Source: a virus
Virus genome (UHGV): UHGV-0194661
Direction: 5' to 3' (one strand)
DNA: 37,411 nt
Part shown: positions 7 through 37,405 of the stretch, in pieces
Layout: the number at the start of each line of letters is the position of its first letter
Position numbering within the stretch: position 1 is the first letter of the stretch
The notes under the pieces: model-generated
Databases searched by the model: none
The model's input: only the letters and a program-made list of their open reading frames with translations
Told to the model about the DNA's origin: nothing
Program-made: the position numbers and the translations under genes

Positions 7-1521
7 ATGGCACAGACATCTGTAGATATTGCTATGGAAAAAACGTCACAGGAGATTCTTGAGATGTGTAAAATTATCCGCACAATGGTGACGGATGTAG
101 AAAAATTCGACTGGAAAAACTTCTGGGCGAATATGGCAACAGGAGAGCTGTTCTCCACAAAGTTTTATAACTATGAAAGCTCAACGAATCCAGCCGGAGA
201 AAAGCTGAACGCTTCAAAAGGACTGGTTGCAGTTCCTTCCACAGACAAGGTGAAGAATCAGGATGATTTCGCTGGAAGAAATGCTTTCAATTACATTGAC
301 TGTAATTTCACCGTGACTGATTCGGGCGACAAGATTCCGGTTGCGATTAAGGGCGGTAATGGTTTCCACAACGCCGGGAAGGTTGATGTGGGAATTATGA
401 CACCACCTACATACTGGGGCGAGGAAGAGTTTGACGGATATTACATCATCCATTTTTCTGACACTCCGCATCCGGAAGTTGGTTGTATTATTCCGACTCC
501 GTGGACAGATGAGAATCTTGGATATGGCATGGTCACAAAGTATTATGCCGGTCTGATTGACGGAATCGCATACAGTTCCTCCGGAAATGCGATTTACAAC
601 TTTGCTTCTGCGCAGTTGGCAATCGATGAGTTGAAAAAGAAAGGTGCTGGATATGTTGGTTCCGGTTCGGAGCGTACTGCATATCTGCTCTGTATGCTGT
701 GGATTAAGTATGCGACAAAGAATAGTCAGAAATACTTTAGAGGTTGTGTTGATACTGGCGGTCATCAGTACAAAGTTGCTGAAACTGGCGAGAATGTAAA
801 TTACGTGGTAATTACAACAACTCAGGCGAAGAACTTCTATGTCGGAGAAACTGTATCAATTGGTACTCCGGGAGCTAACAACAATGTTGACCGTGGACAG
901 GCAAGCATGAATGCAATTGCAAAGAATGTGAGAATTACAGCTATCGAAGCTATTGCTAATACGGCAAACAGTAAAGTGTACGTTGAAAAGGTTGGCATGA
1001 CGATTACTGCGGATGCTTATATTTCAACAATGCCACTGCATTCCGGTACGACAGACGGTGTACTTGGAGCTGACGGATACATTTCTAATGACGGTAAGCA
1101 CGCATTTAAGCTTGGTGGTATCGAGGAAGGTGTTGGAGCTTACTTCATCTCCATGAATGAGATATGGAACAAGACAACAGCCTCTATGGTTGATTACTAT
1201 GTGCGTCCAAAGGGCGTTGCTTGGTCTGCAACAGCTTCAGGATGGAAGAAAGTTGCTACAGTAGATATGGTTGACTCTAGTGACTGTTGGATTGGAGATA
1301 TCAACATTGACCTCGAGACTGGTGCTGATTATCTAAAAACGGTCGGAACGGGTGACTCTGTTGGTGTTGGAGATAGACTCTATAAAGGTGGTACGGGTAC
1401 TGGTTGGAGACAAGCTGCAAAGCGTGGGGGCCTCGGGAACGGTGGGAGCGGTGGTTTCTGCTTCTCGGCTCTCTGGAGCGGGGTCTCTGGGGCGCTTTGG
1501 TACTGCGCCTTCTGCGTTTAG
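7..1521 (+). CDS. DGR target protein: tail-fibre/receptor-binding-like structural protein whose C-terminal ~33 codons are the variable region (VR)
   Basis: 504-aa ORF starting 6 nt into the window. C-terminus (KRGGLGNGGSGGFCFSALWSGVSGALWYCAFCV) is encoded by a ~98-bp segment repeated downstream, with differences only at adenines of the downstream copy. It sits as the last gene of the tail module if the window is circular. Confidence 0.75.
   Translation: MAQTSVDIAMEKTSQEILEMCKIIRTMVTDVEKFDWKNFWANMATGELFSTKFYNYESSTNPAGEKLNASKGLVAVPSTDKVKNQDDFAGRNAFNYIDCNFTVTDSGDKIPVAIKGGNGFHNAGKVDVGIMTPPTYWGEEEFDGYYIIHFSDTPHPEVGCIIPTPWTDENLGYGMVTKYYAGLIDGIAYSSSGNAIYNFASAQLAIDELKKKGAGYVGSGSERTAYLLCMLWIKYATKNSQKYFRGCVDTGGHQYKVAETGENVNYVVITTTQAKNFYVGETVSIGTPGANNNVDRGQASMNAIAKNVRITAIEAIANTANSKVYVEKVGMTITADAYISTMPLHSGTTDGVLGADGYISNDGKHAFKLGGIEEGVGAYFISMNEIWNKTTASMVDYYVRPKGVAWSATASGWKKVATVDMVDSSDCWIGDINIDLETGADYLKTVGTGDSVGVGDRLYKGGTGTGWRQAAKRGGLGNGGSGGFCFSALWSGVSGALWYCAFCV
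1422..1519 (+). repeat. DGR variable region (VR) at the 3' end of the target gene, ending at the stop codon
   Basis: Aligns base-for-base with 1616..1714. All ~18 mismatches are positions where the downstream copy has A and this copy has G/T/C. Confidence 0.8.
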
Positions 1522-1560
1522 TTCCTACCACCTTTCAGGGGTGAATTTTTCGCAGAAAAA

Positions 1561-1578
1561 GAGGGGCTCTTCCCCTTA
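1561..1578 (+). other. GC-rich hairpin (gaggggctcttcccctt) immediately 3' of the VR; possible DGR homing/IMH-associated structure or terminator
   Basis: GGGG/CCCC stem with flanking A-T and G-U pairs, seen directly in the sequence. No T-run follows. Confidence 0.35.
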
Positions 1579-1615
1579 ATTAAGTTAAAGAGAAAATACA
1601 GGACTTGTCGTGCTG

Positions 1616-1714
1616 GCGTGGGAACCTCAGGAACGGTGGGAACGGTGGTTTCTGCTACTCGAATCTCAGGAACGAGGTCTCTAGGACGAATTGGAACTAC
1701 GCCTTCTGAATTTT
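1616..1714 (+). repeat. DGR template repeat (TR)
   Basis: Non-coding copy of the VR. In the VR reading frame it carries AAC/AAT/AGG/TAC codons (four AAC, three AAT) whose adenines are the only sites differing from the VR. Confidence 0.8.
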
Positions 1715-1895
1715 ATTATGCAAACATTATGCACCGCTGGGTGCTTGCACGGCATTTCGCAACAATAAGTTGTACCGAAAGGTCTTAAATAAGTAACAAG
1801 AAAGGGAGCTGGTGCCACGGCAGTGATACTGGCAGTCTATACGAATTGGTATAGACTGGGGCTAGTAGAAAAACCGAAAGCCCCTCGGAACTAAA
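1715..1895 (+). ncRNA. Structured TR-RT spacer (putative DGR RNA 3' portion / cDNA priming region)
   Basis: Non-coding 180 nt between TR and RT. Contains a perfect 10-bp hairpin cagtctatac/gtatagactg at 1833..1858 and a GGGCT/AGCCC hairpin at 1859..1884. The role is by analogy with characterised DGR spacer RNAs. Confidence 0.4.
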
Positions 1896-3050
1896 ATGAA
1901 ACGATACTGTAAGAACATTGATATAACAAGCAGAGAATTAATTTCAGAAGCAACATGGAGCTGTATCAGTAATAAGATTACACGTAGCGACACGATTCAT
2001 ATGTTCATGGAATACACGGGACTTCCGTATCGGTTCTTGATGGATGTGGCTCAAGAGAACAGATACATGCTAGACAGCATTGTAGAAACCGTCATAGATG
2101 GTATCCGACAAGAAATCCTGGAACAGAAGTATATCGTAAAGAAAATCCGTTACAGAATCAAGAAAGATTCTTGTACTGGAAAGCTACGAAATATCGGAAT
2201 CCAAGATATTAAACAGCAAATCTACGATTATATCGCAGTATACGGCTTGAAAGAATTGTTTGAAAAGAAACTCGGCTTTTATCAATGCGGAGCAGTTAAA
2301 CGTAAAGGTAATGAATTTGGAGCTGGAGCTATCAAGAAATGGTTGGCAGATAAAAATATTCGTTGGGCATGGCAAGCAGACGTTCGGCATTATTATGAAA
2401 ATATAAATAAAAATGTTCTGAAAAAGATGTTGAAACGTGATGTGAAGAATGACAGGCTTCTTCATTTAGTGTTCTTCTTGATTGATACATTCGAGTATGG
2501 ACTTTCCATAGGTTCGTATTTGAGTCAGTTCCTAGCGAATTACTACTTGAGCAAGGCTTATATTTACGCAAGCCAACAGTTCAAGGTTCGCAAGAGGAAA
2601 GATGGAACGGTCAAGAAAGTAAGGCTTGCAAGCCATGTGCTATTTCAGATGGATGACATCATTTTCTTCGGTCACAGCAAGAAAGACATGAAAATGCTAG
2701 TGAAAAGATTCAACGAATATATCAATAAAGAGTTAGAACTTGAATTGAAAGAAACAACTCATTTCATTGATTTGCAAACAGAATATGTAGATATTCTTGG
2801 ACGGAAGATATCAAGAAAGAATCTGACAATACGTTCCTCAACATTCCTGAAAGCAAGGAGAACTTATAAGAAAGCCTATTCTTATGTCTGCCACGGAAAA
2901 GAGATTCCGCTGAAACTTGCAAGGAGCTGCGTGGCAAGATACGGAGCAATTAAACACACGGATAGTAAGAGATTCCAAAGACGTTACCACATTGAAACTA
3001 TAATTAAGATGGCTAAGAAAGCAATCGCACGAGCCACGAAAGGAGAATAA
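1896..3050 (+). CDS. DGR-type reverse transcriptase
   Basis: 384 aa. Has the DGR-RT hallmark motif LSIGSYLSQ ([I/L]GxxxSQ) and the catalytic FQMDDIIFFG (xMDD) box. AT-rich gene directly downstream of the TR. Confidence 0.8.
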   Translation: MKRYCKNIDITSRELISEATWSCISNKITRSDTIHMFMEYTGLPYRFLMDVAQENRYMLDSIVETVIDGIRQEILEQKYIVKKIRYRIKKDSCTGKLRNIGIQDIKQQIYDYIAVYGLKELFEKKLGFYQCGAVKRKGNEFGAGAIKKWLADKNIRWAWQADVRHYYENINKNVLKKMLKRDVKNDRLLHLVFFLIDTFEYGLSIGSYLSQFLANYYLSKAYIYASQQFKVRKRKDGTVKKVRLASHVLFQMDDIIFFGHSKKDMKMLVKRFNEYINKELELELKETTHFIDLQTEYVDILGRKISRKNLTIRSSTFLKARRTYKKAYSYVCHGKEIPLKLARSCVARYGAIKHTDSKRFQRRYHIETIIKMAKKAIARATKGE

Positions 3051-3051
3051 C

Positions 3052-3381
3052 GTGAATACAATGAGATTTTCGGAGAAACAGGAGAAAGTAAGCATCTATG
3101 AGCTTGAAAACGGAACAAGAGATGTGGTTATCCTGACAAACGAAAGAGAGGTTGCAGAGACAGAGCCACTGGAAGACGGTGAAGTAAAAGAGTCTACGGC
3201 ATATGAGTATGATGGAAACATCTTTCGAACTCACTCGCTGACAGCTGAACAGATCAAAGCTGATCCTGAGAGCTATCTGGACTACGAAGGAGATGATGCT
3301 CCTACAGACGCAATGGTTGAGTATGCAAACCTTAAAATTGACGAGTACACAGCACAGTTAATGGAAGAAGGACTTATTTAA
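3052..3381 (+). CDS. Acidic hypothetical protein; XkdW-like by position, or a DGR accessory
   Basis: 109-aa ORF starting 1 nt after the RT stop (translational coupling). Sits directly upstream of an XkdX-like gene, as in PBSX-like tail-end modules. The call rests on synteny only. Confidence 0.4.
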   Translation: MNTMRFSEKQEKVSIYELENGTRDVVILTNEREVAETEPLEDGEVKESTAYEYDGNIFRTHSLTAEQIKADPESYLDYEGDDAPTDAMVEYANLKIDEYTAQLMEEGLI

Positions 3382-5471: not shown

Positions 5472-5626
5472 GTAAATATTGTATCATGTGAGGGGGCAAA
5501 AAGGGGGCAGAACATTGTACTTTGTTGTACGGTTTCAGTGCTGAAAATGCCTTAAAGTGCGATATTTCGCAGTAGTTTGTACCTATTTATATATACAGGT
5601 ACTCCCCTAGACAGCTTTGAAGCTTT

Positions 5627-5679
5627 CCCCGCAACCCCAGTATTTACTAGGAATTCTGAGGTTTGCGGGGTTCTTTTTT
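5627..5679 (+). terminator. Rho-independent terminator (ccccgcaa...ttgcgggg + T9)
   Basis: 8-bp GC-rich stem with a long loop, followed by ttcttttttg. Confidence 0.45.
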
Positions 5680-5706
5680 GTTCTCATGGGGCTTTCATGG
5701 GGCTCA

Positions 5707-5933
5707 CTATAAAATTTTTATTGCTTTTAATTGCTCGTTTCGTTTGCTTTCTAACTTCTGTGTGACGTGCAGATAAATTTCTTTTGTAATTTTGCTGTCA
5801 TTATGCCCAAGCCTTTTTGAGATGCTGTCGATATCAATTCCTTGTCCCATTAGCAGACTTGCATGTGTATGTCTTGGTGTGTGTGGCGTAATGCTTCTGC
5901 CGTAATGCTTCTGCCGATAGCAAGAAATCTCTC
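5707..5933 (-). pseudogene. C-terminal remnant of a tyrosine recombinase/integrase, disrupted by a 14-bp tandem duplication
   Basis: Minus-strand translation ...GRSITPHTPRHTHASLLMGQGIDIDSISKRLGHNDSKITKEIYLHVTQ...KAIKIL* carries the integrase box II (HxxR, catalytic Tyr in EIYLHV). Upstream the frame is broken at the duplicated gtaatgcttctgcc (5888..5901 and 5902..5915) and stops occur in all frames. No box I Arg region is present. Confidence 0.7.
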
Positions 5934-6065
5934 ACGAATATTACCCGGCGTTGAGCTTCGATACGATGGTTGACTGGCCTAGAATCTTCATAAATGATTT
6001 ACATGCTCCACAATTCCGATTATAAGTGGATTGCTTGACCGTTCCTGTTGACGCAGGGGCGTTAT

Positions 6066-6611
6066 TTATTTCAGCAGATTTGCAATACAGAGCTTAAGGT
6101 CATCATAGATTCCAACAGAAATCTCATCATCAAAAGAATATTGATTGGAGTCTTCTGTGTTACCAAAAAAGTAAGTCTGAACAGTCTGCGTCATTGGATT
6201 CACAATCCAGTATTCACGAACACCGGCTGTGCGGTATTTGAACAGCTTTGTAAGGTAATCCATACGCTGACTGCTTGGTGATACGATTTCAATAATGAAA
6301 TCTGGGGCACCATTGCATCCACGGTCATTAATCTTGCCTGGATCACAGATCACTGAGACATCTGGTTCTACATAGTTATGATTATCCTGATTCAGAAAAA
6401 CAGCAAATGGAGCAGGCAGAACTTCGCAAGGACCTCCGTGGGATTTAATATAATCCCGGATTGTTGCGGAAAGTTCCATTACAAGTTTCTGATGAAGATA
6501 ACTCGGTGGAGCCATGTCATAGATCTGACCGTCAATCAGTTCTGCACGCTGCCCATCAGGAAGAGCGTAGATGTCTTCAATTGTGTAGTTGTTTGATTTC
6601 GGTAATGGCAT
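6066..6611 (-). CDS. Uma2-family (DUF820, PD-(D/E)xK) endonuclease
   Basis: 181 aa. C-terminal ...DFIIEIVSPSSQRMDYLTKLFKYRTAGVREYWIVNP matches the Uma2 signature (EIxSPS...D...K..Y...GV.EYWIVdP). Confidence 0.65.
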   Translation of the reverse strand: MPLPKSNNYTIEDIYALPDGQRAELIDGQIYDMAPPSYLHQKLVMELSATIRDYIKSHGGPCEVLPAPFAVFLNQDNHNYVEPDVSVICDPGKINDRGCNGAPDFIIEIVSPSSQRMDYLTKLFKYRTAGVREYWIVNPMTQTVQTYFFGNTEDSNQYSFDDEISVGIYDDLKLCIANLLK

Positions 6612-6636
6612 GCAATCACGTCCTTTCTTAATTACT

Positions 6637-7983
6637 TTAAGGTTGATGTTCTTGTTTCATTTTTTGACTAATACGATATTGTTCCGCATCTGGAACATCA
6701 ATAAATTCAACTGTTTTATCAAAATTCTTCTTTACAACAGCTTTGATCTCATCAAGAGTAACATTGAAAAATTCTCTTCGAGTATTTACCATATTTAATT
6801 TTCTATCTTCAAAGGCTCTGTGCAAAGCGGTTTCAAGTGCTGGAGCATCATCGGAAAAAATCATAGCATGTACATCAAAATTGAATGGAACAGATGCGTC
6901 ACCCAACTCATCAACTCGATCCTGAGGATCTAATCGACGGGTCATTCCGATTTTATATACATTAGGACCAAAAGCACCAATATTAGAAATAACATATACA
7001 TATCCTGCACGCTGGTTAGCTTCTCTATAGTCAATATCTTTCATAGCTTTATCAATGTCATTTAATTGAGACTCCAGTTCCAGCTTCTTGTCAAGCAAGT
7101 CTTTATTTTCTGGATCTGACTGTAATTGGATGAGCAAATGCTCATATGCGGTCTGATAGTGAGTTTGTTCTTTTTCTATTTTCTTTCGTTGAGCTTCAAT
7201 TTCCTTTTGTAAACGAGCAGCTTCTCTTAATTCTGCACGAGCAGCTTTTTGAGCTTCTTTTTCTTCTTGTTTCTTTTGTTGATATTCAAAAGATAGTCTC
7301 AATTCTTTTACTTTTAGGTCTAAGTAAGCAGGTGTTATTGAGATATTCATAATTGTGCCCAATTTAGAAATTGTTTCAGCAGATTTATATATTTTATTAA
7401 GTGAGGCATCAAAATTAGTATACTTAACTTTCGAGATCAGCTCATCGCACTCAGTATTAAAAGCTCGCAAAAGCAACTTCTGAGTATCTGAAACCATTTT
7501 CTTTCCTTTGGCAGAACTTCCATTTACCTGCCATGTGGTAACTCCGGAGACTGCAAGTTTATTTTTTATCATATCTTTCTGTTTAGAACGAATTTTGGCA
7601 AGTTCTTCTTTATAATCAAGAGCATTAGCAAATTCATAGGTTGGTTTGTAAAGACCAAATTCTTGAACAAGAATTTCATCATCAAGAGTAACAATTTCTT
7701 TTTTCTTACAATTTATTTCTTGATTCAGTTTATCGATTTCTTTTTGCCTTTTAAGTCGCTCTTTTTCAATTTTTTCAGTTTCTTTTTGAAAGCTTTGATT
7801 CAAGTTTAATAATTCATCCTGTTTCTGCTGCATGTTATTATTTAATTCTCGAATTGTATCTTTCAGCATAAGAGCATTTTGCATTTCCGGGGTAAGCAGT
7901 TCTTGTAAGTCGTTATATTTTTGTTGCAATTCTGCTAATTCTGCTTTGTACTGATTTCCTTTGAATGTGTCTAAAAATCCCAT
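6637..7983 (-). CDS. DUF4041 coiled-coil protein with C-terminal T5orf172 (GIY-YIG-like) domain
   Basis: 448 aa. Long K/E/Q-rich coiled coil, then GYVYVISNIGAFGPNVYKIGMTRRLDPQDRVDELGDASVPFNFDVHAMIFSDDAPALETALHRAFEDRKLN typical of T5orf172/MUG113. Confidence 0.6.
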   Translation of the reverse strand: MGFLDTFKGNQYKAELAELQQKYNDLQELLTPEMQNALMLKDTIRELNNNMQQKQDELLNLNQSFQKETEKIEKERLKRQKEIDKLNQEINCKKKEIVTLDDEILVQEFGLYKPTYEFANALDYKEELAKIRSKQKDMIKNKLAVSGVTTWQVNGSSAKGKKMVSDTQKLLLRAFNTECDELISKVKYTNFDASLNKIYKSAETISKLGTIMNISITPAYLDLKVKELRLSFEYQQKKQEEKEAQKAARAELREAARLQKEIEAQRKKIEKEQTHYQTAYEHLLIQLQSDPENKDLLDKKLELESQLNDIDKAMKDIDYREANQRAGYVYVISNIGAFGPNVYKIGMTRRLDPQDRVDELGDASVPFNFDVHAMIFSDDAPALETALHRAFEDRKLNMVNTRREFFNVTLDEIKAVVKKNFDKTVEFIDVPDAEQYRISQKMKQEHQP

Positions 7984-8051
7984 TTTTTATCCTTCCCCCT
8001 TGTTCCTATGAGTACACCACAAACTCATATATAATCTCTTACGAGGTTATA

Positions 8052-8513
8052 TCACATCATTTCAACCACTACTAGATTCGGAATGAAGTATATAATATAG
8101 TTATCAACGGTAGTATATACTCCATACTTATCACGGTAGCAGCTGATACATTCTTCCAGATATTCTTCTGTAACATCTAGAAAATCTGCAATTTCATATT
8201 TGTTTTGACATCCAGCATTGAACGCGTGGATGATTCCAACAAGTCCGATCAGGCGGTTATAGCCATGTAATCGGGCTTGACGTTCCTGTTTCCGGTTCTC
8301 CAGTTTGGACTGATCTCGAATATCACCTGTGGAAGTATAGTAGTGTCCAAGTTCTTCAGCAAGAACATTGGCTTTTTGTCGTGACGTCTTAATATCATGC
8401 CGGATAGCAATTTTGTTTCCTTTTATTCTTCCATCTCCGCTTTGCAGTGGCTTTTCCTTTACCACTAATCCAATATTGCGAGCTTCGTCTAAAAGTATTT
8501 CATAAGAATTCAC
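8052..8513 (-). CDS. ImmA/IrrE-family metallopeptidase (anti-repressor protease) with variant EELGH motif
   Basis: 153 aa. VLAEELGHYY occupies the position of HExxH. Immediately downstream of an XRE repressor, as in ImmR/ImmA pairs. Confidence 0.55.
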   Translation of the reverse strand: MNSYEILLDEARNIGLVVKEKPLQSGDGRIKGNKIAIRHDIKTSRQKANVLAEELGHYYTSTGDIRDQSKLENRKQERQARLHGYNRLIGLVGIIHAFNAGCQNKYEIADFLDVTEEYLEECISCYRDKYGVYTTVDNYIIYFIPNLVVVEMM

Positions 8514-8574
8514 TTACAACACCTCCATCATAATTGTACTAAGCAATTTGTCCTTTAAAAGAGGACTATGGAGA

Positions 8575-9060
8575 TTAGAAGTTTTCGTCATCCATGATGT
8601 CATCATCATGTTGCCTCATTTCATCTGTGACTTCTATATCGGTACGTTCATGAGCTGCCTGGACGGCCAACTCTTCTTCCATTTGCTGGTTCACAAGCAG
8701 ATTTTTTGAATAGGTAAGGACTCTTTTCTGATTCGGAGAAGAGAGTTTTTCGTATATATTAAGTAGTTCTTTATGCTCTCCGTGAAATTTATACACATTA
8801 TTCTTAAATTTATCTGCTATTTCTTTCGGAGCTTCTTTTCCGGAGAAATTTGTATCCATCTGTTCCCAGCCCATTAAATATGCCGGAGATGTATCCAATG
8901 CCCTTGCGATTAATTCTATTTTATCAGAAGGAATATTGCCGATTACGCCACTTTCGTATCGTTGAATTGTTTGACGGCTTACACCAACACTTTTTGCTAA
9001 ATCTTCTAATGTCATTTTACGTTCAATTCGTTTACTTTTGATATTTTCTTTCAATCCCAT
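8575..9060 (-). CDS. XRE-family HTH repressor (cI/ImmR-like)
   Basis: N-terminal KRIERKMTLEDLAKSVGVSRQTIQRYESG is a classic Cro/C1 HTH. Divergently oriented to a Cro-like gene. Confidence 0.75.
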   Translation of the reverse strand: MGLKENIKSKRIERKMTLEDLAKSVGVSRQTIQRYESGVIGNIPSDKIELIARALDTSPAYLMGWEQMDTNFSGKEAPKEIADKFKNNVYKFHGEHKELLNIYEKLSSPNQKRVLTYSKNLLVNQQMEEELAVQAAHERTDIEVTDEMRQHDDDIMDDENF

Positions 9061-11495: not shown

Positions 11496-11711
11496 ATGAT
11501 TAAAGCAACAAAAATAAAAACAAACGATAAAGATGGTTATCAGGTAGAAGCAAGTGGAAGTATTGGTGATCTTATGATGGAGTATAAAGCAATAACGGAA
11601 GCTCTCTTCAAAACGGTCAGTAGAGAGGCTGGATTAGGACTCGCAGAGGAACTCTTTATGAAAGCAATAAGAATGACAATTGAGGGAGAGAAGAATGAAC
11701 GATCCGTTTGA
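11496..11711 (+). CDS. Small hypothetical protein
   Basis: Internal ATG of ORF 11388..11711 with an AAAGGAAA-type RBS. Start uncertain. Confidence 0.3.
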   Translation: MIKATKIKTNDKDGYQVEASGSIGDLMMEYKAITEALFKTVSREAGLGLAEELFMKAIRMTIEGEKNERSV

Positions 11712-12354
11712 AGTATTTGATTTTAAGGACGAAAAGGACTGGTTAAGTGGAAGAATGAACGGCATCGGTGGAAGCGATGCGAGCTCAGTGGTCGGGATGA
11801 ATCCTTACAAGAGCAACATCGATCTGTTTGAAGAGAAGACTGGGAGAAGAATTCCAGAAGATATTTCTGGAAAAGCCTGTGTGATCTATGGAAAATACGC
11901 AGAAGGACCAATCCGGGAATTGTTTAAACTGGACTATCCGGAATATAAAGTAGAGCATCATGAGTTCAGAATCTTGCGAAGTATTGAGCATCCATTTATG
12001 CAGGCTTCACTTGATGGAGAGCTAACAGATCAGGATGGAAGAAAAGGAATCTTGGAAATAAAAACAACTAACATTTTGCAGAGTATGCAGAAAGAGAAGT
12101 GGAGAGATCGTGTTCCGGATAATTATTACATACAGGTTTTACATTATCTTCTTGTCACAGGTTATGAATTTATTGAACTGTGTGCACATCTAAGAACTGA
12201 TTGGGGCGGAGAGAAACGGACAACAGTAAAACATTACCATATAGAGCGGGCAGAAGTTCAGAATGATCTGGATATGCTGCTTAGAGAAGAAACGAAGTTT
12301 TGGAATTATGTAGAGAGTGGCAGGAAGCCACCGCTCATACTTCCAGAGATATAA
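11695..12354 (+). CDS. YqaJ-type (lambda-exonuclease-like) recombination exonuclease
   Basis: GIGGSDASSVVGMNPYKSNIDLFEEKTG is the YqaJ N-terminal signature. ATG 11695 after GGGAGAG. Sits upstream of DUF1351 and RecT. Confidence 0.7.
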   Translation: MNDPFEVFDFKDEKDWLSGRMNGIGGSDASSVVGMNPYKSNIDLFEEKTGRRIPEDISGKACVIYGKYAEGPIRELFKLDYPEYKVEHHEFRILRSIEHPFMQASLDGELTDQDGRKGILEIKTTNILQSMQKEKWRDRVPDNYYIQVLHYLLVTGYEFIELCAHLRTDWGGEKRTTVKHYHIERAEVQNDLDMLLREETKFWNYVESGRKPPLILPEI

Positions 12355-12371
12355 ATACAAGGAGGAACAAA

Positions 12372-13247
12372 ATGGAATTAAGAATTACTAATCCGGAAGA
12401 AAATGGATTTTTGAAAGAGATCCAGTGGAACCAAGAGGAAGTCAAATCATGGGTTGCTGCAAGAGTGCAGGATTATAAGACGATCGCATATACTGCAGAT
12501 CAGGCGAAAGACATGAAGAGAGATCGTGCAGATCTTAATAAGTTAAAAGCTGCATTCGAAGACGAGAGAAAGCGTCTGAAGAAAGTGTGTATGGAACCGT
12601 ATAACCGGTTTGAACAGCAGGTGAAAGAAATCACAGCACTGATTGATGAACCAATTCAGTTAATTGATTCTCAGCTGTCTGAAATCGAAGAGAGACGCAA
12701 GCAGCTGAAACAGAAAGAGATAGAAGAACTTTTTGAAACGATCGGATTTCAGGACTTCATTACGCTGGAAAGAATCATGGATCCGAAGTGGCTGAATGCA
12801 ACGGTATCTCTTAACAAGATTGAAGAGCAGATGAAGAACTTGCTGTTTAGAGTCGGTACAGAAGTTTCTACGATCAATAGTCTTCCGGAGTTTAGCTTTG
12901 AAGCACTGGAGAATTACAAGAAGACGCTTGACTTAAATATGGCCATTGCAGAAGGACAGAGACTTGCAGACATTCAGAAGCGGAAACAGCAGTATGAAGA
13001 AGAACAGAAACGTATTGCTGAAGAAAAAGCAAGACAGGAAGCAGAAGAACTTACAGCTAAGCAGCAGGAAGGTGATGAGACAGTCAAAGAAGCTACACCG
13101 GTTAATGAGACTGTTATTGTAAGAGAAGAGCCAGTTGCTGCAGACCTGATCCAGTTAGACTTCCGTGTATTCGGAACAAGAGAGCAGATCATGGCATTAC
13201 GTAACTATATGATTGAGAATCAGATTAAATTTGGAAAGGTGGAATAA
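12372..13247 (+). CDS. DUF1351-like phage protein (RecT-associated)
   Basis: AGGAGG then ATG 12372. Coiled-coil-rich protein sitting between YqaJ and RecT. Confidence 0.5.
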   Translation: MELRITNPEENGFLKEIQWNQEEVKSWVAARVQDYKTIAYTADQAKDMKRDRADLNKLKAAFEDERKRLKKVCMEPYNRFEQQVKEITALIDEPIQLIDSQLSEIEERRKQLKQKEIEELFETIGFQDFITLERIMDPKWLNATVSLNKIEEQMKNLLFRVGTEVSTINSLPEFSFEALENYKKTLDLNMAIAEGQRLADIQKRKQQYEEEQKRIAEEKARQEAEELTAKQQEGDETVKEATPVNETVIVREEPVAADLIQLDFRVFGTREQIMALRNYMIENQIKFGKVE

Positions 13248-13250
13248 AAG

Positions 13251-14165
13251 ATGGCAGTACAGAACAGTTTAGCAAACAGACAGACGAAAACAGGAATGGC
13301 TGCATACCTGACGCAGGATGCAGTAAAGAAACAGATCAACAGTGTGGTTGGTGGAAAGAATGGGACAAGATTCATTTCCAGTATCGTATCAGCAGTTCAG
13401 ACAACACCGGCTCTGCAGGAGTGTACAAATCCAAGCATCCTGTCAGCAGCATTACTTGGTGAGGCACTGAACCTTTCACCATCTCCGCAGCTTGGTCAGT
13501 TCTATATGGTCCCTTTCGACAATAAGAAGAAAGGATGCAAGGAAGCACAGTTTCAGCTTGGATATAAGGGATACATTCAGTTGGCAGAGCGTTCTGGATA
13601 TTATAAGAAACTGAATGTTCTTGCAATCAAGGAAGGCGAACTGATCCGTTATGATCCTCTGAATGAAGAGATAGAGGTGGAATTGATCGATGATGATGTG
13701 ATTCGTGAAGAAGCACCTGCTATGGGATATTATGCTATGTTTGAGTATGAGAATGGGTTCCGTAAGACCATGTACTGGTCCAAGAAGAAAATGCTTGCAC
13801 ATGCGGAGAAGTATTCCCAGGCATTTAAGAGAAATGGTGGAGCAAAGTCCTTGGAGCTTCTGGAACAGGGGAAGATTCCAGAAAAGGAACTTTGGAAATA
13901 TTCTTCCTTCTGGTTTAAAGATTTTGATGGAATGGCATTGAAGACGATGCTCCGTCAGCTGATCAGCAAATGGGGAATCATGAGTATTGATCTTCAGACA
14001 GCACTTGATAAGGACATGGCAGTCATCCATGAAGATGGAACAACAGATTATGTTGATACTCAGCTAGAGCAGGACAATATTGTTGCAGATCAGGAGCTGC
14101 AGGAGGTAAAAGAGAACAAAAAGGAACAGCCGACAGGAAATATTGAAGAGGAGTTCTTCCAGTAG
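13251..14165 (+). CDS. recT: RecT-family single-strand annealing recombinase
   Basis: ...TTPALQECTNPSILSAALLGEALNLSPSPQLGQFYMVPF... is typical of the RecT core. Confidence 0.7.
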   Translation: MAVQNSLANRQTKTGMAAYLTQDAVKKQINSVVGGKNGTRFISSIVSAVQTTPALQECTNPSILSAALLGEALNLSPSPQLGQFYMVPFDNKKKGCKEAQFQLGYKGYIQLAERSGYYKKLNVLAIKEGELIRYDPLNEEIEVELIDDDVIREEAPAMGYYAMFEYENGFRKTMYWSKKKMLAHAEKYSQAFKRNGGAKSLELLEQGKIPEKELWKYSSFWFKDFDGMALKTMLRQLISKWGIMSIDLQTALDKDMAVIHEDGTTDYVDTQLEQDNIVADQELQEVKENKKEQPTGNIEEEFFQ

Positions 14166-14225
14166 AAAATAGTTATCTCCTTATAAATTGAACATATGTC
14201 ACACACGCAACTTATAAACAATGTT

Positions 14226-14261
14226 TCTTCCTGTACTGGATACGCTGGTCCGGTACAGGAA
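14226..14261. repeat. Perfect 12-bp inverted repeat (ttcttcctgtac ... gtacaggaagaa) with a 12-nt loop
   Basis: Seen directly in the sequence, between recT and rusA. No T-run. Confidence 0.5.
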
Positions 14262-14274
14262 GAAAGGGGAAAGA

Positions 14275-14715
14275 ATGAAATCAGTAATATTTCATGTCCC
14301 TGGCAAACCGCAGGGAAAGGCAAGAGCCAGGACTGTTTACAATAAAAACTTAAGTCACTCAGTTAGCTATACACCTGAGAATGATCTGCTGTATGAGAAT
14401 CTGATCAAAGCAATGTATATTACTGCTGCCAAAGGAACAAAATTTGACAAAGACATACCAGTAGCTCTTCGAATCGTAGCAAGGTTTGAACCGCCGAAGA
14501 GTACCTCTAAGAAAAAAGTGCAGCAGATGCTGGCAGGTGAACTTCATGTCATGAAGAAACCGGATATCGATAATATAGTAAAGGTTGTAGCGGATGCGCT
14601 GAATGGCGTGGCCTACAAAGATGATACTCAGATCGTATTTGTCGCTGCAAAGAAAGCATATTCAGCCGAGGAAGGACTGGATGTGATCGTGGAGGAATAT
14701 AAAGCAACAGAATAA
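14275..14715 (+). CDS. rusA: RusA-family Holliday junction resolvase
   Basis: MKSVIFHVPGKPQGKARAR..., basic and acidic catalytic residues, ~146 aa. GGGGAAAG RBS upstream. Confidence 0.65.
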   Translation: MKSVIFHVPGKPQGKARARTVYNKNLSHSVSYTPENDLLYENLIKAMYITAAKGTKFDKDIPVALRIVARFEPPKSTSKKKVQQMLAGELHVMKKPDIDNIVKVVADALNGVAYKDDTQIVFVAAKKAYSAEEGLDVIVEEYKATE

Positions 14716-15899: not shown

Positions 15900-16325
15900 A
15901 TGAGTAGAATGATGGACGCAGATAAATTTCTTTCCTGGCTGAGTGAGGTCGAGGGTGAGATCAGGAAAGAGAAGGTGAAAGACTGTCAGCCGGATCGGTA
16001 TGATGACGGGTTGATGGCGGCAACAGGGACCATCAGGGAGTATGTTGAGAAGATGTGCAAGATCGACGAGGCAGAAGGAAAGGCGGATCAGAGTTGGATT
16101 CCGTGCAGTGAACGATTTCCAGACGGAGATAGATATATTCTTGTATCGTTTGAAAACTCCACAATGCCGGATATCGCGCGATATGAAGAAAATGACGAGG
16201 GTGGCACGTTCTATCCGGGAGATGATGAAAAATCATATTCAAGCTATGGATTTTTTGTGAATGCCTGGATGCCGTTGCCGGAACTGTACAGGAGAGAGGA
16301 TGAGCAAGACCATGAGACTGATTGA
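15900..16325 (+). CDS. DUF551-family phage protein (paralog 1)
   Basis: WIPCSERFPDGDRYILVSF fits the DUF551 W-[IV]-x-[VC]-x(3)-[LF]-P motif. Confidence 0.5.
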   Translation: MSRMMDADKFLSWLSEVEGEIRKEKVKDCQPDRYDDGLMAATGTIREYVEKMCKIDEAEGKADQSWIPCSERFPDGDRYILVSFENSTMPDIARYEENDEGGTFYPGDDEKSYSSYGFFVNAWMPLPELYRREDEQDHETD

Positions 16326-16719
16326 CGCAGATATGCTGACTGAAAAAGTGACAAAATGGCTGAACCCTGACCCAAACGCAGATAGAATGGTGGATATTGA
16401 CGATATAGCAGCCTCCGTTTTCATGGAGATTGAAGAGCAGCCGACGGTTCCTTTGTGGATATCTGTAGAAGATAGCCTGCCGGAAGATGGCGATAGCAGA
16501 TTTTACATGTGCTTGGTAGAAAACCATTTAGAAGACCCGCCGATGTTTTGCCAGTACGAAGAAGGATATGGATTTGGCTTCTGGAGAGACATATATGATT
16601 CGGTAACACTTGGCTTTGTGGACTCTGAGTTTGAAACGATGGAAGATCTGAAATATGAAAAAGTTCTCTATTGGATGCCTATGATAGAGCTGCTAGAGGA
16701 GGCAATGCAAGATGACTGA
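16300..16719 (+). CDS. DUF551-family phage protein (paralog 2)
   Basis: WISVEDSLPEDGDSRFYMCLV. ATG 16300 after GGAGAGAGG. Confidence 0.5.
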   Translation: MSKTMRLIDADMLTEKVTKWLNPDPNADRMVDIDDIAASVFMEIEEQPTVPLWISVEDSLPEDGDSRFYMCLVENHLEDPPMFCQYEEGYGFGFWRDIYDSVTLGFVDSEFETMEDLKYEKVLYWMPMIELLEEAMQDD

Positions 16720-20603: not shown

Positions 20604-20675
20604 GGACCATTAGTTCAGTGGTAGAACATTCGCCTCATAAGCGATATGTCGTAGGTTCGATCCCTACATGGTCCA
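20604..20675 (+). tRNA. tRNA with CAU anticodon (Met; could alternatively be tRNA-Ile2 by lysidine modification)
   Basis: 7-bp acceptor stem GGACCAT/ATGGTCC, D-arm AGTTCAGTGGTAGAAC, anticodon loop CTCATAA, T-arm GTAGGTTCGATCCCTAC, discriminator A. No encoded CCA. Confidence 0.7.
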
Positions 20676-36485: not shown

Positions 36486-36695
36486 ATGGTGAATGTGTTG
36501 GATATTATAGAGAGCAATATTGCTGGAATGAGGCTGTCGTTGATGGCGGATACAAAAGGGGAGATGCTTCCGAAAACATGCGTGGATCTGAACAGCATTG
36601 CAGGGGACAGGAAGATTCTTCCAGGGAGCACCTGCATCACGCCAACATTAGACATAGCTATCATGGGAAATGATGGTGAATGGAGGTGGAACTGA
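36486..36695 (+). CDS. Small hypothetical protein
   Basis: 69-aa ORF with a GGGAGGG RBS. Confidence 0.35.
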   Translation: MVNVLDIIESNIAGMRLSLMADTKGEMLPKTCVDLNSIAGDRKILPGSTCITPTLDIAIMGNDGEWRWN

Positions 36696-37405
36696 TGGAC
36701 AGTAATCTAATTATGGCTATTGCTATGAAAGCGTTGAAGAACAGTAAAGCTGGTGGAGGGACAGTGAAGCTTGATGCTGTAAATAAGGCTGTCGAATCAA
36801 TCGTTGCAGACAGAGAACAGATTGCTAAAAACAAGACGGACATTGCTTTGCTAAATGAAGATTTAGCGCAAATAGAGAATTTTGTTGTTGGGAAAAATTT
36901 ACTGAATCCTAACACAGTTACTATTGGTAAGAGAATGTATGTAGACGGAAGTGTGCGCACGCAAGAATCAGATTTTTACACAGATTTTATTGCTGTAAAA
37001 CCTAATCAGCATATCTATGCAAGTTTTCTTAATGATACTGGTAATTTTGTAAGGTCACAGATCAGGCATGTTTGTGCTTATGATGCAAGCAAAACTGTAT
37101 TGTCGTCAAAAGGGCAACATGATGCTGGATATGATTATCTTGTTCCAGATGGCGTTGCTTATATCGTGGTAACATTTACGGAAAATAATAACATCAACCA
37201 TAGGCAGTTGGAGGTAAGTGATACTGGCATAACAAGTTTTGAGGAGTACTTTGCTCCTTATATCGAATTAAAAGCACAAGCACAGATCGACAAAAACACA
37301 AGTGGTGTGAAACGGTTAGATGAAGAGAAGGCAAATGGCAAAGGAATCTCATTCTCAATCAACGAATCAGGTGGACTTAGAGTAACTTACGATGATGGCA
37401 AATAG
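36695..37405 (+). CDS. Tail fibre / receptor-binding-module protein
   Basis: GGAGGTGG then ATG 36695. 236 aa. Its stop is followed by AGGAGGAT at the window end, which lines up with the first ORF of the window. Confidence 0.45.
   Translation: MDSNLIMAIAMKALKNSKAGGGTVKLDAVNKAVESIVADREQIAKNKTDIALLNEDLAQIENFVVGKNLLNPNTVTIGKRMYVDGSVRTQESDFYTDFIAVKPNQHIYASFLNDTGNFVRSQIRHVCAYDASKTVLSSKGQHDAGYDYLVPDGVAYIVVTFTENNNINHRQLEVSDTGITSFEEYFAPYIELKAQAQIDKNTSGVKRLDEEKANGKGISFSINESGGLRVTYDDGK

What the first reader, a model, noticed from the sequence alone, without database searches (positions are those of the whole stretch)
1380..3050. Diversity-generating retroelement: VR/TR pair differing only at template adenines, plus a DGR-type RT
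The last ~98 bp of the first gene (1422..1519) recur at 1616..1714. I count about 18 mismatches, and at every one the downstream copy has A while the coding copy has G, T or C. No other base class differs. That pattern is the mark of DGR mutagenic retrohoming (TR adenines copied error-prone into the VR). Read in the VR frame, the TR codons are AAC/AAT/AGG/TAC-type (four AAC, three AAT). The downstream gene has the [I/L]GxxxSQ box (LSIGSYLSQ) and an xMDD catalytic box, as in the DGR reverse transcriptase clade. If the genome is circular, the target is the terminal gene of the tail module, so this phage probably diversifies its receptor-binding protein.
Basis: partly seen in the sequence, partly recalled or inferred. 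Interest (0 to 1): 0.85.

Follow-up and report, generated by a model that had tools for sequence, protein, structure and literature searches.

The report
Phage retroelement that diversifies a tail-fibre tip
This is a genuine diversity-generating retroelement in a gut-type phage: it rewrites the last 30 codons of a tail-fibre gene from a nearby template using an error-prone reverse transcriptase. It is well supported but belongs to a kind already known in large numbers.

Summary
VR 1422..1519, the end of the 504-aa ORF 7..1521, and TR 1616..1713 align without gaps over 98 nt. They differ at 18 sites, and all 18 are adenines in the TR (p about 2e-15).

38 of 41 related loci share the VR-TR-RT layout, with 591 mismatches at TR adenines and 48 at other bases. 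In close relatives the VR copies its own TR at every non-A polymorphic position (160 of 160) and varies only at TR adenines.

I add four refinements:
- The last two "A" mismatches (1515/1516) are probably fixed boundary differences, not mutagenesis.
- There is no Avd accessory gene. This layout is already known as Architecture A (29% of 372 catalogued DGRs).
- The TR-RT spacer encodes a conserved, covarying structured RNA that no Rfam family matches at its gathering score.
- Independent contigs spanning the window's ends confirm circular continuity, so the target gene closes the tail module.

Verdict: a new member of a known kind, of modest interest.

The parts
7..1521 (+). Target gene: 504-aa tail-fibre-like protein whose C-terminal part has a C-type-lectin (CLec/FGE) fold. 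It is the last gene of the tail module once the window is circularised.
1422..1519 (+). Variable repeat (VR), covering codons 473-504. The diversified tract is 1429..1505 (16 sites).
   Evidence: 98-nt ungapped repeat with 18 A-only mismatches. Variation among relatives is confined to TR-A columns.
1506..1519 (+). 3' boundary of the VR. It comprises an A-free block CGCCTTCTG (1506..1514) identical in VR and TR, then the VR-specific CG (1515..1516, against AA in the TR), then TTT. This is a candidate counterpart of IMH/IMH*.
   Evidence: The CG is invariant in 10 close loci, and the terminal residues AFCV are invariant in 21 protein variants. Remote relatives have a TR thymine at the homologous site, and non-A mismatches cluster 3-9 nt from the 3' end.
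1538..1578 (+). Conserved non-coding module after the VR. It has three parts: an invariant GGGGTGAATTT (1538..1548); an AT hairpin TTTTTC-GCA-GAAAAA (1546..1560); and a G/C hairpin (G)AGGGG-CTCTT-CCCCT(T) (1561..1577). It is probably a terminator and/or a DGR target-recognition hairpin.
   Evidence: Alignment of 12 loci. The stems covary: TTTTGC/GCAAAA, TTGC/GCAA, TTTCCATCAT/ATGATGGAAA, GTTAAGGGG/CCCCTTAAC and TGCAAGGGGG/CCCCCTTGCA. The function is inferred by analogy with PMC3240598.
1616..1713 (+). Template repeat (TR). In frame it reads 5 AAC, 2 AAT, 3 AGG, 2 TAC and a TGA stop, so it is not itself translated usefully.
   Evidence: The TR is conserved among relatives while the VRs differ.
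1714..1895 (+). TR-RT spacer encoding a structured RNA. Hairpin 1731..1744. Two-tier hairpin 1808..1813/1828..1833 with an inner stem 1816..1818/1823..1825. Nine-bp hairpin 1834..1842/1849..1857. Helix 1858..1862/1880..1884 enclosing the invariant CUAGUAG (1862..1868).
   Evidence: RNAalifold predicts 24 pairs, 19 of them with compensatory changes. 95.8% of cells pair against 36-46% in slid controls, and 0 of 500 shuffles reach this. Covariance model R1 finds the element just upstream of the RT in unseeded loci at 35-53 bits. In the enlarged set 20 of 23 pairs covary. There is no Rfam match at gathering score. A weak RT-18 hit scores 16 bits.
1896..3050 (+). DGR-type reverse transcriptase, 384 aa. 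It carries IGSYLSQ (residues 205-211), QMDD (residues 251-254) and an invariant D162.

Best explanation
This is a diversity-generating retroelement of the accessory-gene-free type (target - TR - RT).

Proposed mechanism. A transcript covering the TR (1616..1713) and the structured spacer (1714..1895) is bound by the RT encoded just downstream. The RT copies the TR into cDNA faithfully except opposite adenines. The cDNA replaces the homologous VR (1422..1519) at the 3' end of the tail-fibre gene. This rewrites up to about 16 nucleotide positions in about 14 codons on the ligand-binding face of a C-type-lectin fold. The 3' limit of transfer lies in or just after the A-free block CGCCTTCTG. The VR-only CG dinucleotide and the hairpins after the stop codon mark the VR as recipient and the TR as donor. 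The phage thereby generates receptor-binding variants.

Shown: the repeat pair and its adenine-only asymmetry; the RT type; the CLec fold; one-way TR-to-VR information flow across relatives; a conserved spacer RNA structure.

Inferred by analogy with Bordetella phage BPP-1: RNA-primed cDNA synthesis, the exact start site, the role of the hairpins, and receptor binding by the target.
For: - 18 of 18 mismatches fall at TR adenines, p about 2e-15.
- 38 of 41 loci found through the RT have the same layout. Over 38 unique pairs there are 591 A mismatches and 48 non-A mismatches, and the non-A ones lie mostly at the repeat ends.
- In 10 close loci, all 160 non-A cells at TR-polymorphic columns are identical in the cognate VR, while the all-A columns show mixed bases.
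- In 21 target variants of at least 89% identity, column entropy is 0.15 bits for residues 1-470 against 0.91 for residues 471-504. The hypervariable residues are exactly the AAC/AAT codons.
- The spacer RNA covaries.
- The gene sits at the end of the tail module.
Against: - No read-level data were available. Three independent assemblies of this exact genome carry the same VR, so ongoing activity in this particular lineage is not shown.
- Pfam RVT_1 scores below its gathering cut-off. The only curated NCBIfam hit is the group II intron model, at 58 bits against a cut-off of 300.
- No Avd was found, although the only biochemically dissected DGR needs it.
- The A-free block is 9 nt, not a (GC)14 element.
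- The post-VR hairpins lie 27-42 nt downstream and lack the GRNA tetraloop described for BPP-1-type targets (PMC3240598).
- No convincing promoter for the TR RNA was found.
Confidence: 0.92

Rival explanations
1. A DGR fossil: the repeats and the RT are inherited, but retrohoming no longer operates in this genome.
For: The VR is identical in three independent assemblies of this genome. Decayed relatives exist: L059 keeps the target, a TR remnant and the spacer RNA but has lost the RT, and L115 has the target with no TR or RT.
Against: The RT ORF is intact with all invariant catalytic residues and gives a confident full-length model. There are 0 non-A VR/TR mismatches here, whereas drift after inactivation would add them. 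The TR, the spacer RNA and the post-VR module are all intact. Consensus assemblies hide minority variants, and DGR events are rare per generation.
Confidence: 0.05
2. An ordinary direct repeat (duplication or gene conversion) next to an unrelated reverse transcriptase such as a group II intron, retron or defence RT.
For: Among curated family libraries the best hit is the group II model TIGR04416. PADLOC gives weak generic RT and UG4 hits.
Against: Adenine-only asymmetry at p 2e-15, repeated in 38 loci. The TIGR04416 score is 58 against a cut-off of 300. bRT outranks group II, retron, DRT and Abi RTs by both profile and fold. There are no intron RNA domains, no retron msr/msd and no Rfam group II hit.
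Confidence: 0.01
3. A DGR that does use a protein cofactor: either the conserved acidic 109-aa protein encoded right after the RT (3052..3381) or an unrecognised Avd elsewhere.
For: A p109 homologue follows the RT in 67 of 70 IMG/VR loci and diverges in step with it. It has no known family or solved relative.
Against: L115 and L103 encode a CLec target followed by p109 with no RT, and L059 keeps p109 after losing the RT. p109 therefore travels with the fibre gene. It is acidic (pI 4.1), unlike the basic, nucleic-acid-binding Avd (mean pI 9.5, PMC5758913). It sits where PBSX-like phages carry a small gene before XkdX. No PF05635 hit was found in 44 ORFs.
Confidence: 0.08

Closest known systems
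Bordetella phage BPP-1 DGR (mtd-VR / avd / TR / brt)
   Different: There is no avd gene. The RT shares 18% identity and is 56 aa longer. The A-free block is 9 nt rather than 14. The hairpins lie further from the VR and lack a GRNA loop. The spacer RNA does not match Rfam RT-10, the BPP-1 spacer motif.
Architecture A (TR-RT core, no accessory gene) DGRs of Wu et al. 2018 (PMC5758913)
   Same: Target, TR and RT with no avd, HRDC, MSL or CH1 gene. The VR is C-terminal, and the host context is a Firmicutes-type phage.
   Different: Placement in their RT lineages (for example the avd-less Lineage 3) was not tested here. Their paper does not describe a spacer RNA for this group.
TaqVP (Thermus aquaticus DGR variable protein, 5vf4) and other CLec-fold variable proteins (TvpA 2y3c, Mtd 1yu0)
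   Different: 15% identity. The present protein is a phage tail component with an extra N-terminal region. It has no Pfam domain hit.
Rfam RT-18 motif (RF03021; Weinberg et al. 2017, PMC5737381)
   Same: It lies immediately upstream of an RT gene. It shares a helix closing a UAGUAG-containing loop followed by CGAAAG.
   Different: It scores 16 bits against a gathering score of 41.3, and no relative reaches the threshold. The upstream helices of the present RNA are not in that model.
DGRs of gut Firmicutes temperate phages (Faecalibacterium prophages, PMC11792537; Roseburia phage Shimadzu cited therein; global survey PMC8144416)
   Same: The same ecological and genomic setting: a phage-encoded DGR diversifying a tail or adhesion protein.
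   Different: No near-identical genome exists in the INPHARED collection. Direct comparison with those phages was not done.

Membership tests
Diversity-generating retroelement (DGR) | TR/VR repeat pair whose differences are (almost) all at TR adenines | tested here: met
   18 of 18 mismatches at TR adenines, p 2e-15. 591 A against 48 non-A over 38 related pairs.
Diversity-generating retroelement (DGR) | Reverse transcriptase of the DGR clade (IGxxxSQ in motif 4, YxDD-type motif 5, closer to bRT than to group II, retron or Abi RTs) | tested here: met
Diversity-generating retroelement (DGR) | TR adjacent to the RT gene; VR inside a protein-coding target, usually at its 3' end | tested here: met
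   The TR ends 182 nt before the RT start. The VR covers the last 32 codons, ending 2 nt before the end of the ORF.
Diversity-generating retroelement (DGR) | Variable residues displayed on a C-type-lectin (or Ig-like) fold | tested here: met
Diversity-generating retroelement (DGR) | Evidence of actual TR-to-VR transfer and diversification | tested here: met
   Tested across genomes only. 160 of 160 non-A TR polymorphisms are mirrored in the cognate VR. VR-restricted hypervariability is seen in 21 protein variants. Within-population read data could not be tested, and three assemblies of this genome share one VR.
Diversity-generating retroelement (DGR) | IMH-type 3' boundary ((GC)-rich identical block, then VR/TR differences) and a GC-rich hairpin with GRNA loop 4-34 bp after the VR (BPP-1-type target, PMC3240598) | tested here: inconclusive
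   An A-free 9-nt block plus a fixed CG/AA difference is present. Conserved covarying hairpins are present, but they lie 27-42 nt downstream with 3- and 5-nt non-GRNA loops.
Diversity-generating retroelement (DGR) | Avd accessory protein (present in about 74% of DGRs; not universal) | tested here: not met
   No room for it: the VR-TR gap is 96 nt and the TR-RT gap is 182 nt. No PF05635 hit in 44 window ORFs or in the precomputed Pfam hits of neighbours. This is not disqualifying: 29% of catalogued DGRs lack accessory genes (PMC5758913).
Architecture A / avd-less DGR lineage (Wu et al. 2018) | TR-RT core without any accessory gene | tested here: met
   As above. The conserved downstream 109-aa gene also occurs without the RT, so it is not counted as an accessory gene.
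Architecture A / avd-less DGR lineage (Wu et al. 2018) | RT falls in their Lineage 3 on the RT tree | not tested
Rfam RT-18 RNA (RF03021) | Score at or above the family gathering threshold (41.3 bits) | tested here: not met
   16 bits, E 2.3-5.9. None of 11 related loci reaches any Rfam threshold.
Group II intron RT/maturase | TIGR04416 score at or above 300; flanking intron RNA domains | tested here: not met
   58.6 bits. No group II intron RNA hit in Rfam.

The most novel reading that the evidence does not exclude
This RT clade may run a minimal two-component DGR consisting of the RT plus its own RNA. On this reading the conserved spacer RNA takes over the template-positioning role that Avd plays in Bordetella phage, and the GGGGTGAATTT motif with its tandem hairpins acts as a new type of target-recognition signal. 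The spacer RNA has at least four covarying helices and an invariant CUAGUAG loop, and no Rfam family matches it at its gathering score. If true, this would be a compact, Avd-free system of interest for engineered targeted mutagenesis.
Probability: 0.3. Interest if true: 0.55.

Novelty: new member of a known kind. Interest (0 to 1): 0.3.

Why it matters
It shows that this phage and a large set of gut-phage relatives continually re-tailor the tip of a tail fibre, which bears on host range and on phage-bacterium arms races in the gut. For DGR specialists the useful points are these. It is a well-sampled avd-less lineage, with more than 100 loci collected here. It has a clearly defined structured spacer RNA, a short boundary element and conserved post-VR hairpins. 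Together these give concrete handles for asking how retrohoming works without Avd. None of this changes the general picture of DGRs.

Tried and rejected
1. The 109-aa protein after the RT as a new DGR accessory factor. It is adjacent to the RT in 67 of 70 loci. I rejected it as DGR-specific because it persists next to the CLec target where the RT is absent or deleted. It has no Pfam or PDB relative, so an XkdW relationship could not be shown.
2. A template:primer duplex between the TR 3' end and the spacer, as in BPP-1 (TR118-129 with Sp47-56). RNAduplex gave different, AU-rich or register-shifting sites in different groups, so no site can be named.
3. Long-range pairing of the VR 3' end (TTCTGCG) with CGCAGAA at 1551..1557, which the MFE fold predicts. 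It is not conserved: the partner bases vary like loop bases (GTA, GCA, GAA, ACA, ATA). The local AT hairpin fits the covariation better.
4. A pseudoknot CCGA (1874..1877) with TCGG (1885..1888) overlapping helix 5. There is no covariation and it is broken in L024 and L041, so it is left open.
5. Rfam at gathering score on the window and on 11 loci found nothing but a tRNA.
6. A near-identical phage in INPHARED: none.
7. A genome-contig scan for the host gave only one distant hit, a Lachnospiraceae MAG with 46% RT identity. Host assignment therefore stays at 'Gram-positive gut Clostridia-like', inferred from the GH25 lysin, Hol44 holin, XkdX and CD1375-like domains.
8. An integrase was sought and not found.
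Full report
OBSERVATION. The 504-aa ORF 7..1521 ends in a 98-nt segment (1422..1519) that recurs without gaps at 1616..1713, offset 194. Of the 98 positions, 80 match and 18 differ. At every difference the downstream copy has A, and the coding copy has G (11), T (4) or C (3). 18 of the 23 adenines in the downstream copy are affected. Random placement of 18 mismatches would hit only adenines with probability 2e-15. All but one of the changes fall at codon position 1 or 2. Read in the VR frame, the downstream copy holds 5 AAC, 2 AAT, 3 AGG, 2 TAC, GAG, ACG, TGA and ATT codons.

COMPARATIVE EVIDENCE FOR RETROHOMING. The RT retrieved 40 viral loci and one Lachnospiraceae MAG locus. A self-BLAST screen found the same VR - about 90-nt gap - TR - about 180-270-nt gap - RT layout with adenine-biased mismatches in 38 of the 41. 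Over the 38 unique pairs, which include the window, there are 591 mismatches at TR adenines and 48 elsewhere. The non-A ones lie mostly within 3-9 nt of the 3' end or in the first five bases. In the ten closest loci (RT identity 75-100%) the TRs themselves differ at 18 columns. In all 160 cells where the TR base is not A, the cognate VR carries the same base. At 19 of the 21 columns where every TR has A, the VRs carry mixed bases. This shows one-way, repeated copying of TR into VR with randomisation at adenines. Twenty further target variants of at least 89% identity show column entropy of 0.15 bits over residues 1-470 and 0.91 over residues 471-504. The most variable residues (475, 478, 481, 488, 491, 497, 499) are exactly the AAC/AAT codons of the TR. 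I could not examine reads. The three assemblies of this exact genome carry the same VR, so current activity in this lineage is not demonstrated.

THE 3' BOUNDARY. The last variable adenine faces VR 1505. Next comes CGCCTTCTG (1506..1514), free of A and identical in both copies. Then the VR has CG (1515/1516) where the TR has AA, followed by TTT. The C at 1515 is unchanged in all ten close loci. The G at 1516 is G in eight of them and A, matching the TR, in L008 and L009. The encoded C-terminus AFCV is invariant in 21 variant proteins. In remoter relatives the TR base at the second of these positions is T, giving a T-to-G difference that adenine mutagenesis cannot produce. If the TR version (TGA) were copied it would end the protein two residues early. 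I therefore read these two sites as a fixed VR/TR difference marking the limit of transfer, analogous to IMH against IMH* in BPP-1 (PMC3240598, PMC5758913). This leaves 16 truly diversified sites. Selection for the C-terminal Cys could add to the constancy.

AFTER THE VR. Non-coding DNA downstream of the stop codon is unusually conserved across loci whose coding DNA is only about 65% identical. It has three parts: an invariant GGGGTGAATTT (1538..1548), an AT-rich hairpin (1546..1560) and a G/C hairpin (1561..1577). Both stems covary. The AT stem appears as TTTTTC/GAAAAA, TTTTGC/GCAAAA, TTGC/GCAA, and a 10-bp version in L041. The G/C stem appears as AGAGGGG/CCCCTCT, GTTAAGGGG/CCCCTTAAC and TGCAAGGGGG/CCCCCTTGCA. 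The TR lacks this module. BPP-1-type targets need a GC-rich hairpin with a GRNA loop 4-34 bp after the VR (PMC3240598). Here the hairpins lie further away and the loops differ. The role in target recognition, or simply in termination, is therefore inferred and not shown.

THE SPACER RNA. [quoted passage not shown] RNAalifold on 13 sequences predicts 24 pairs, 19 with compensatory changes. 95.8% of cells pair against 36-46% when partners are slid, and no shuffle of 500 reaches the observed covariation. A covariance model of the 3' 98 nt recovers the element directly upstream of the RT in loci not used to build it. These include groups with only 40-50% RT identity (35-53 bits, E 1e-6 to 1e-11). 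On the enlarged alignment, which is fitted to the model, 20 of 23 pairs covary. The most remote groups (L025, L027, L037) were not detected. In window coordinates the helices are 1731..1744, 1808..1833 (two-tier), 1834..1857, and 1858..1862/1880..1884 around an invariant CUAGUAG. The RT start codon follows 11 nt after the last helix, with no clear Shine-Dalgarno sequence. No Rfam family reaches its threshold in the window or in 11 relatives. The only resemblance is a 16-bit match to RT-18, which shares the helix-UAGUAG...CGAAAG-helix core. Weinberg et al. linked RT-10 to the BPP-1 spacer and guessed that other RT motifs belong to DGRs (PMC5737381). In BPP-1 the spacer primes cDNA and wraps bRT-Avd (10.1101/2023.10.23.563531). 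I could not locate a convincing primer-template duplex here.

NO AVD. The VR-TR gap (96 nt) and the TR-RT gap (182 nt) leave no room for a gene. None of 44 window ORFs hits the Avd family, and none of the neighbours in seven related contigs has such a hit on record. The acidic 109-aa protein that follows the RT is adjacent to it in 67 of 70 loci. However, it also follows CLec targets that have no RT (L115, L103), and it survives RT deletion (L059). It therefore belongs to the fibre module. Accessory-free DGRs are already documented: Architecture A makes up 29% of 372 elements, and an avd-less lineage has been described (PMC5758913).

COMPARISON AND VERDICT. By every defining feature I could test, this is a DGR. 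It works like the BPP-1 element but lacks Avd, has a shorter boundary block, and has different post-VR hairpins and a different spacer RNA. DGRs on gut phage tail fibres are abundant and well described (PMC8144416, PMC11792537). The finding is correct and well documented but not new in kind. The residual interest lies in the mechanism of Avd-independent retrohoming, for which this well-sampled lineage offers defined RNA and DNA elements.

Noticed in passing
window 3052..3381 (conserved start probably the ATG at 3061): An acidic 109-aa protein (pI 4.1) with no Pfam, NCBIfam, PADLOC or PDB relative. It immediately follows the RT in 67 of 70 IMG/VR loci and precedes XkdX. It also occurs next to CLec targets that lack an RT. 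It may be a fibre assembly or partner protein.
   Followed up: yes
L059:3001-5321; L115:2926-5321; L103:2426-5312; L056:4485-5300: Decayed or DGR-free relatives. L059 keeps the target, a TR remnant and the spacer RNA but has lost all but about 32 aa of the RT. L115 has a CLec-type target followed after 54 nt by the p109 homologue, with no TR or RT. In L056 the p109 domain is fused to a larger protein.
   Followed up: partly
window 36680..37405 and L001:3971-4093 (also L004, L005, L007, L012, L013, L017): The target-DGR-lysis block is a mosaic module. In relatives, DNA similarity to the window starts exactly at the target gene. The upstream tail gene shares only its last 30-40 residues, which may be a docking segment for the fibre.
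   Followed up: partly
window 5577..9060: No integrase was found in the window, despite an Xre-type repressor (8575..9060) and an ImmA-like M78 peptidase (8052..8513). The minus-strand genes here are a Uma2-family nuclease (6066..6611) and a DUF4041+T5orf172 protein (6637..7983). Contigs of 45.9 and 54.7 kb carry this 37.4-kb genome, so its integrated or extrachromosomal state is unclear.
   Followed up: partly
window 20604..20675: A tRNA-Met (CAT) gene lies just upstream of the packaging genes.
   Followed up: no
L105, L107, L108, L109, L113, L117 (target at about 250-1780, RT at about 3848): In a remoter RT group (about 40% identity) the CLec target lies about 2 kb upstream of the RT, so at least one extra gene sits between VR and TR. 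I did not examine whether it is an accessory gene or a second target.
   Followed up: no
window 1885..1898: The RT start codon follows the last spacer helix by 11 nt (TCGGAACTAAAATG) with no clear Shine-Dalgarno sequence. In the 58%-identity group an extra stretch of about 40 nt is inserted here. RT translation may be coupled to the RNA fold.
   Followed up: no
window 1618..1788: The 56-aa ORF listed here is just the TR read in the VR frame and continued into the spacer. It is not a plausible gene.
   Followed up: yes
window 11680..14715: A recombination module: YqaJ exonuclease, DUF1351, RecT and a RusA resolvase. Two adjacent DUF551 paralogues lie at 15900..16719.
   Followed up: no
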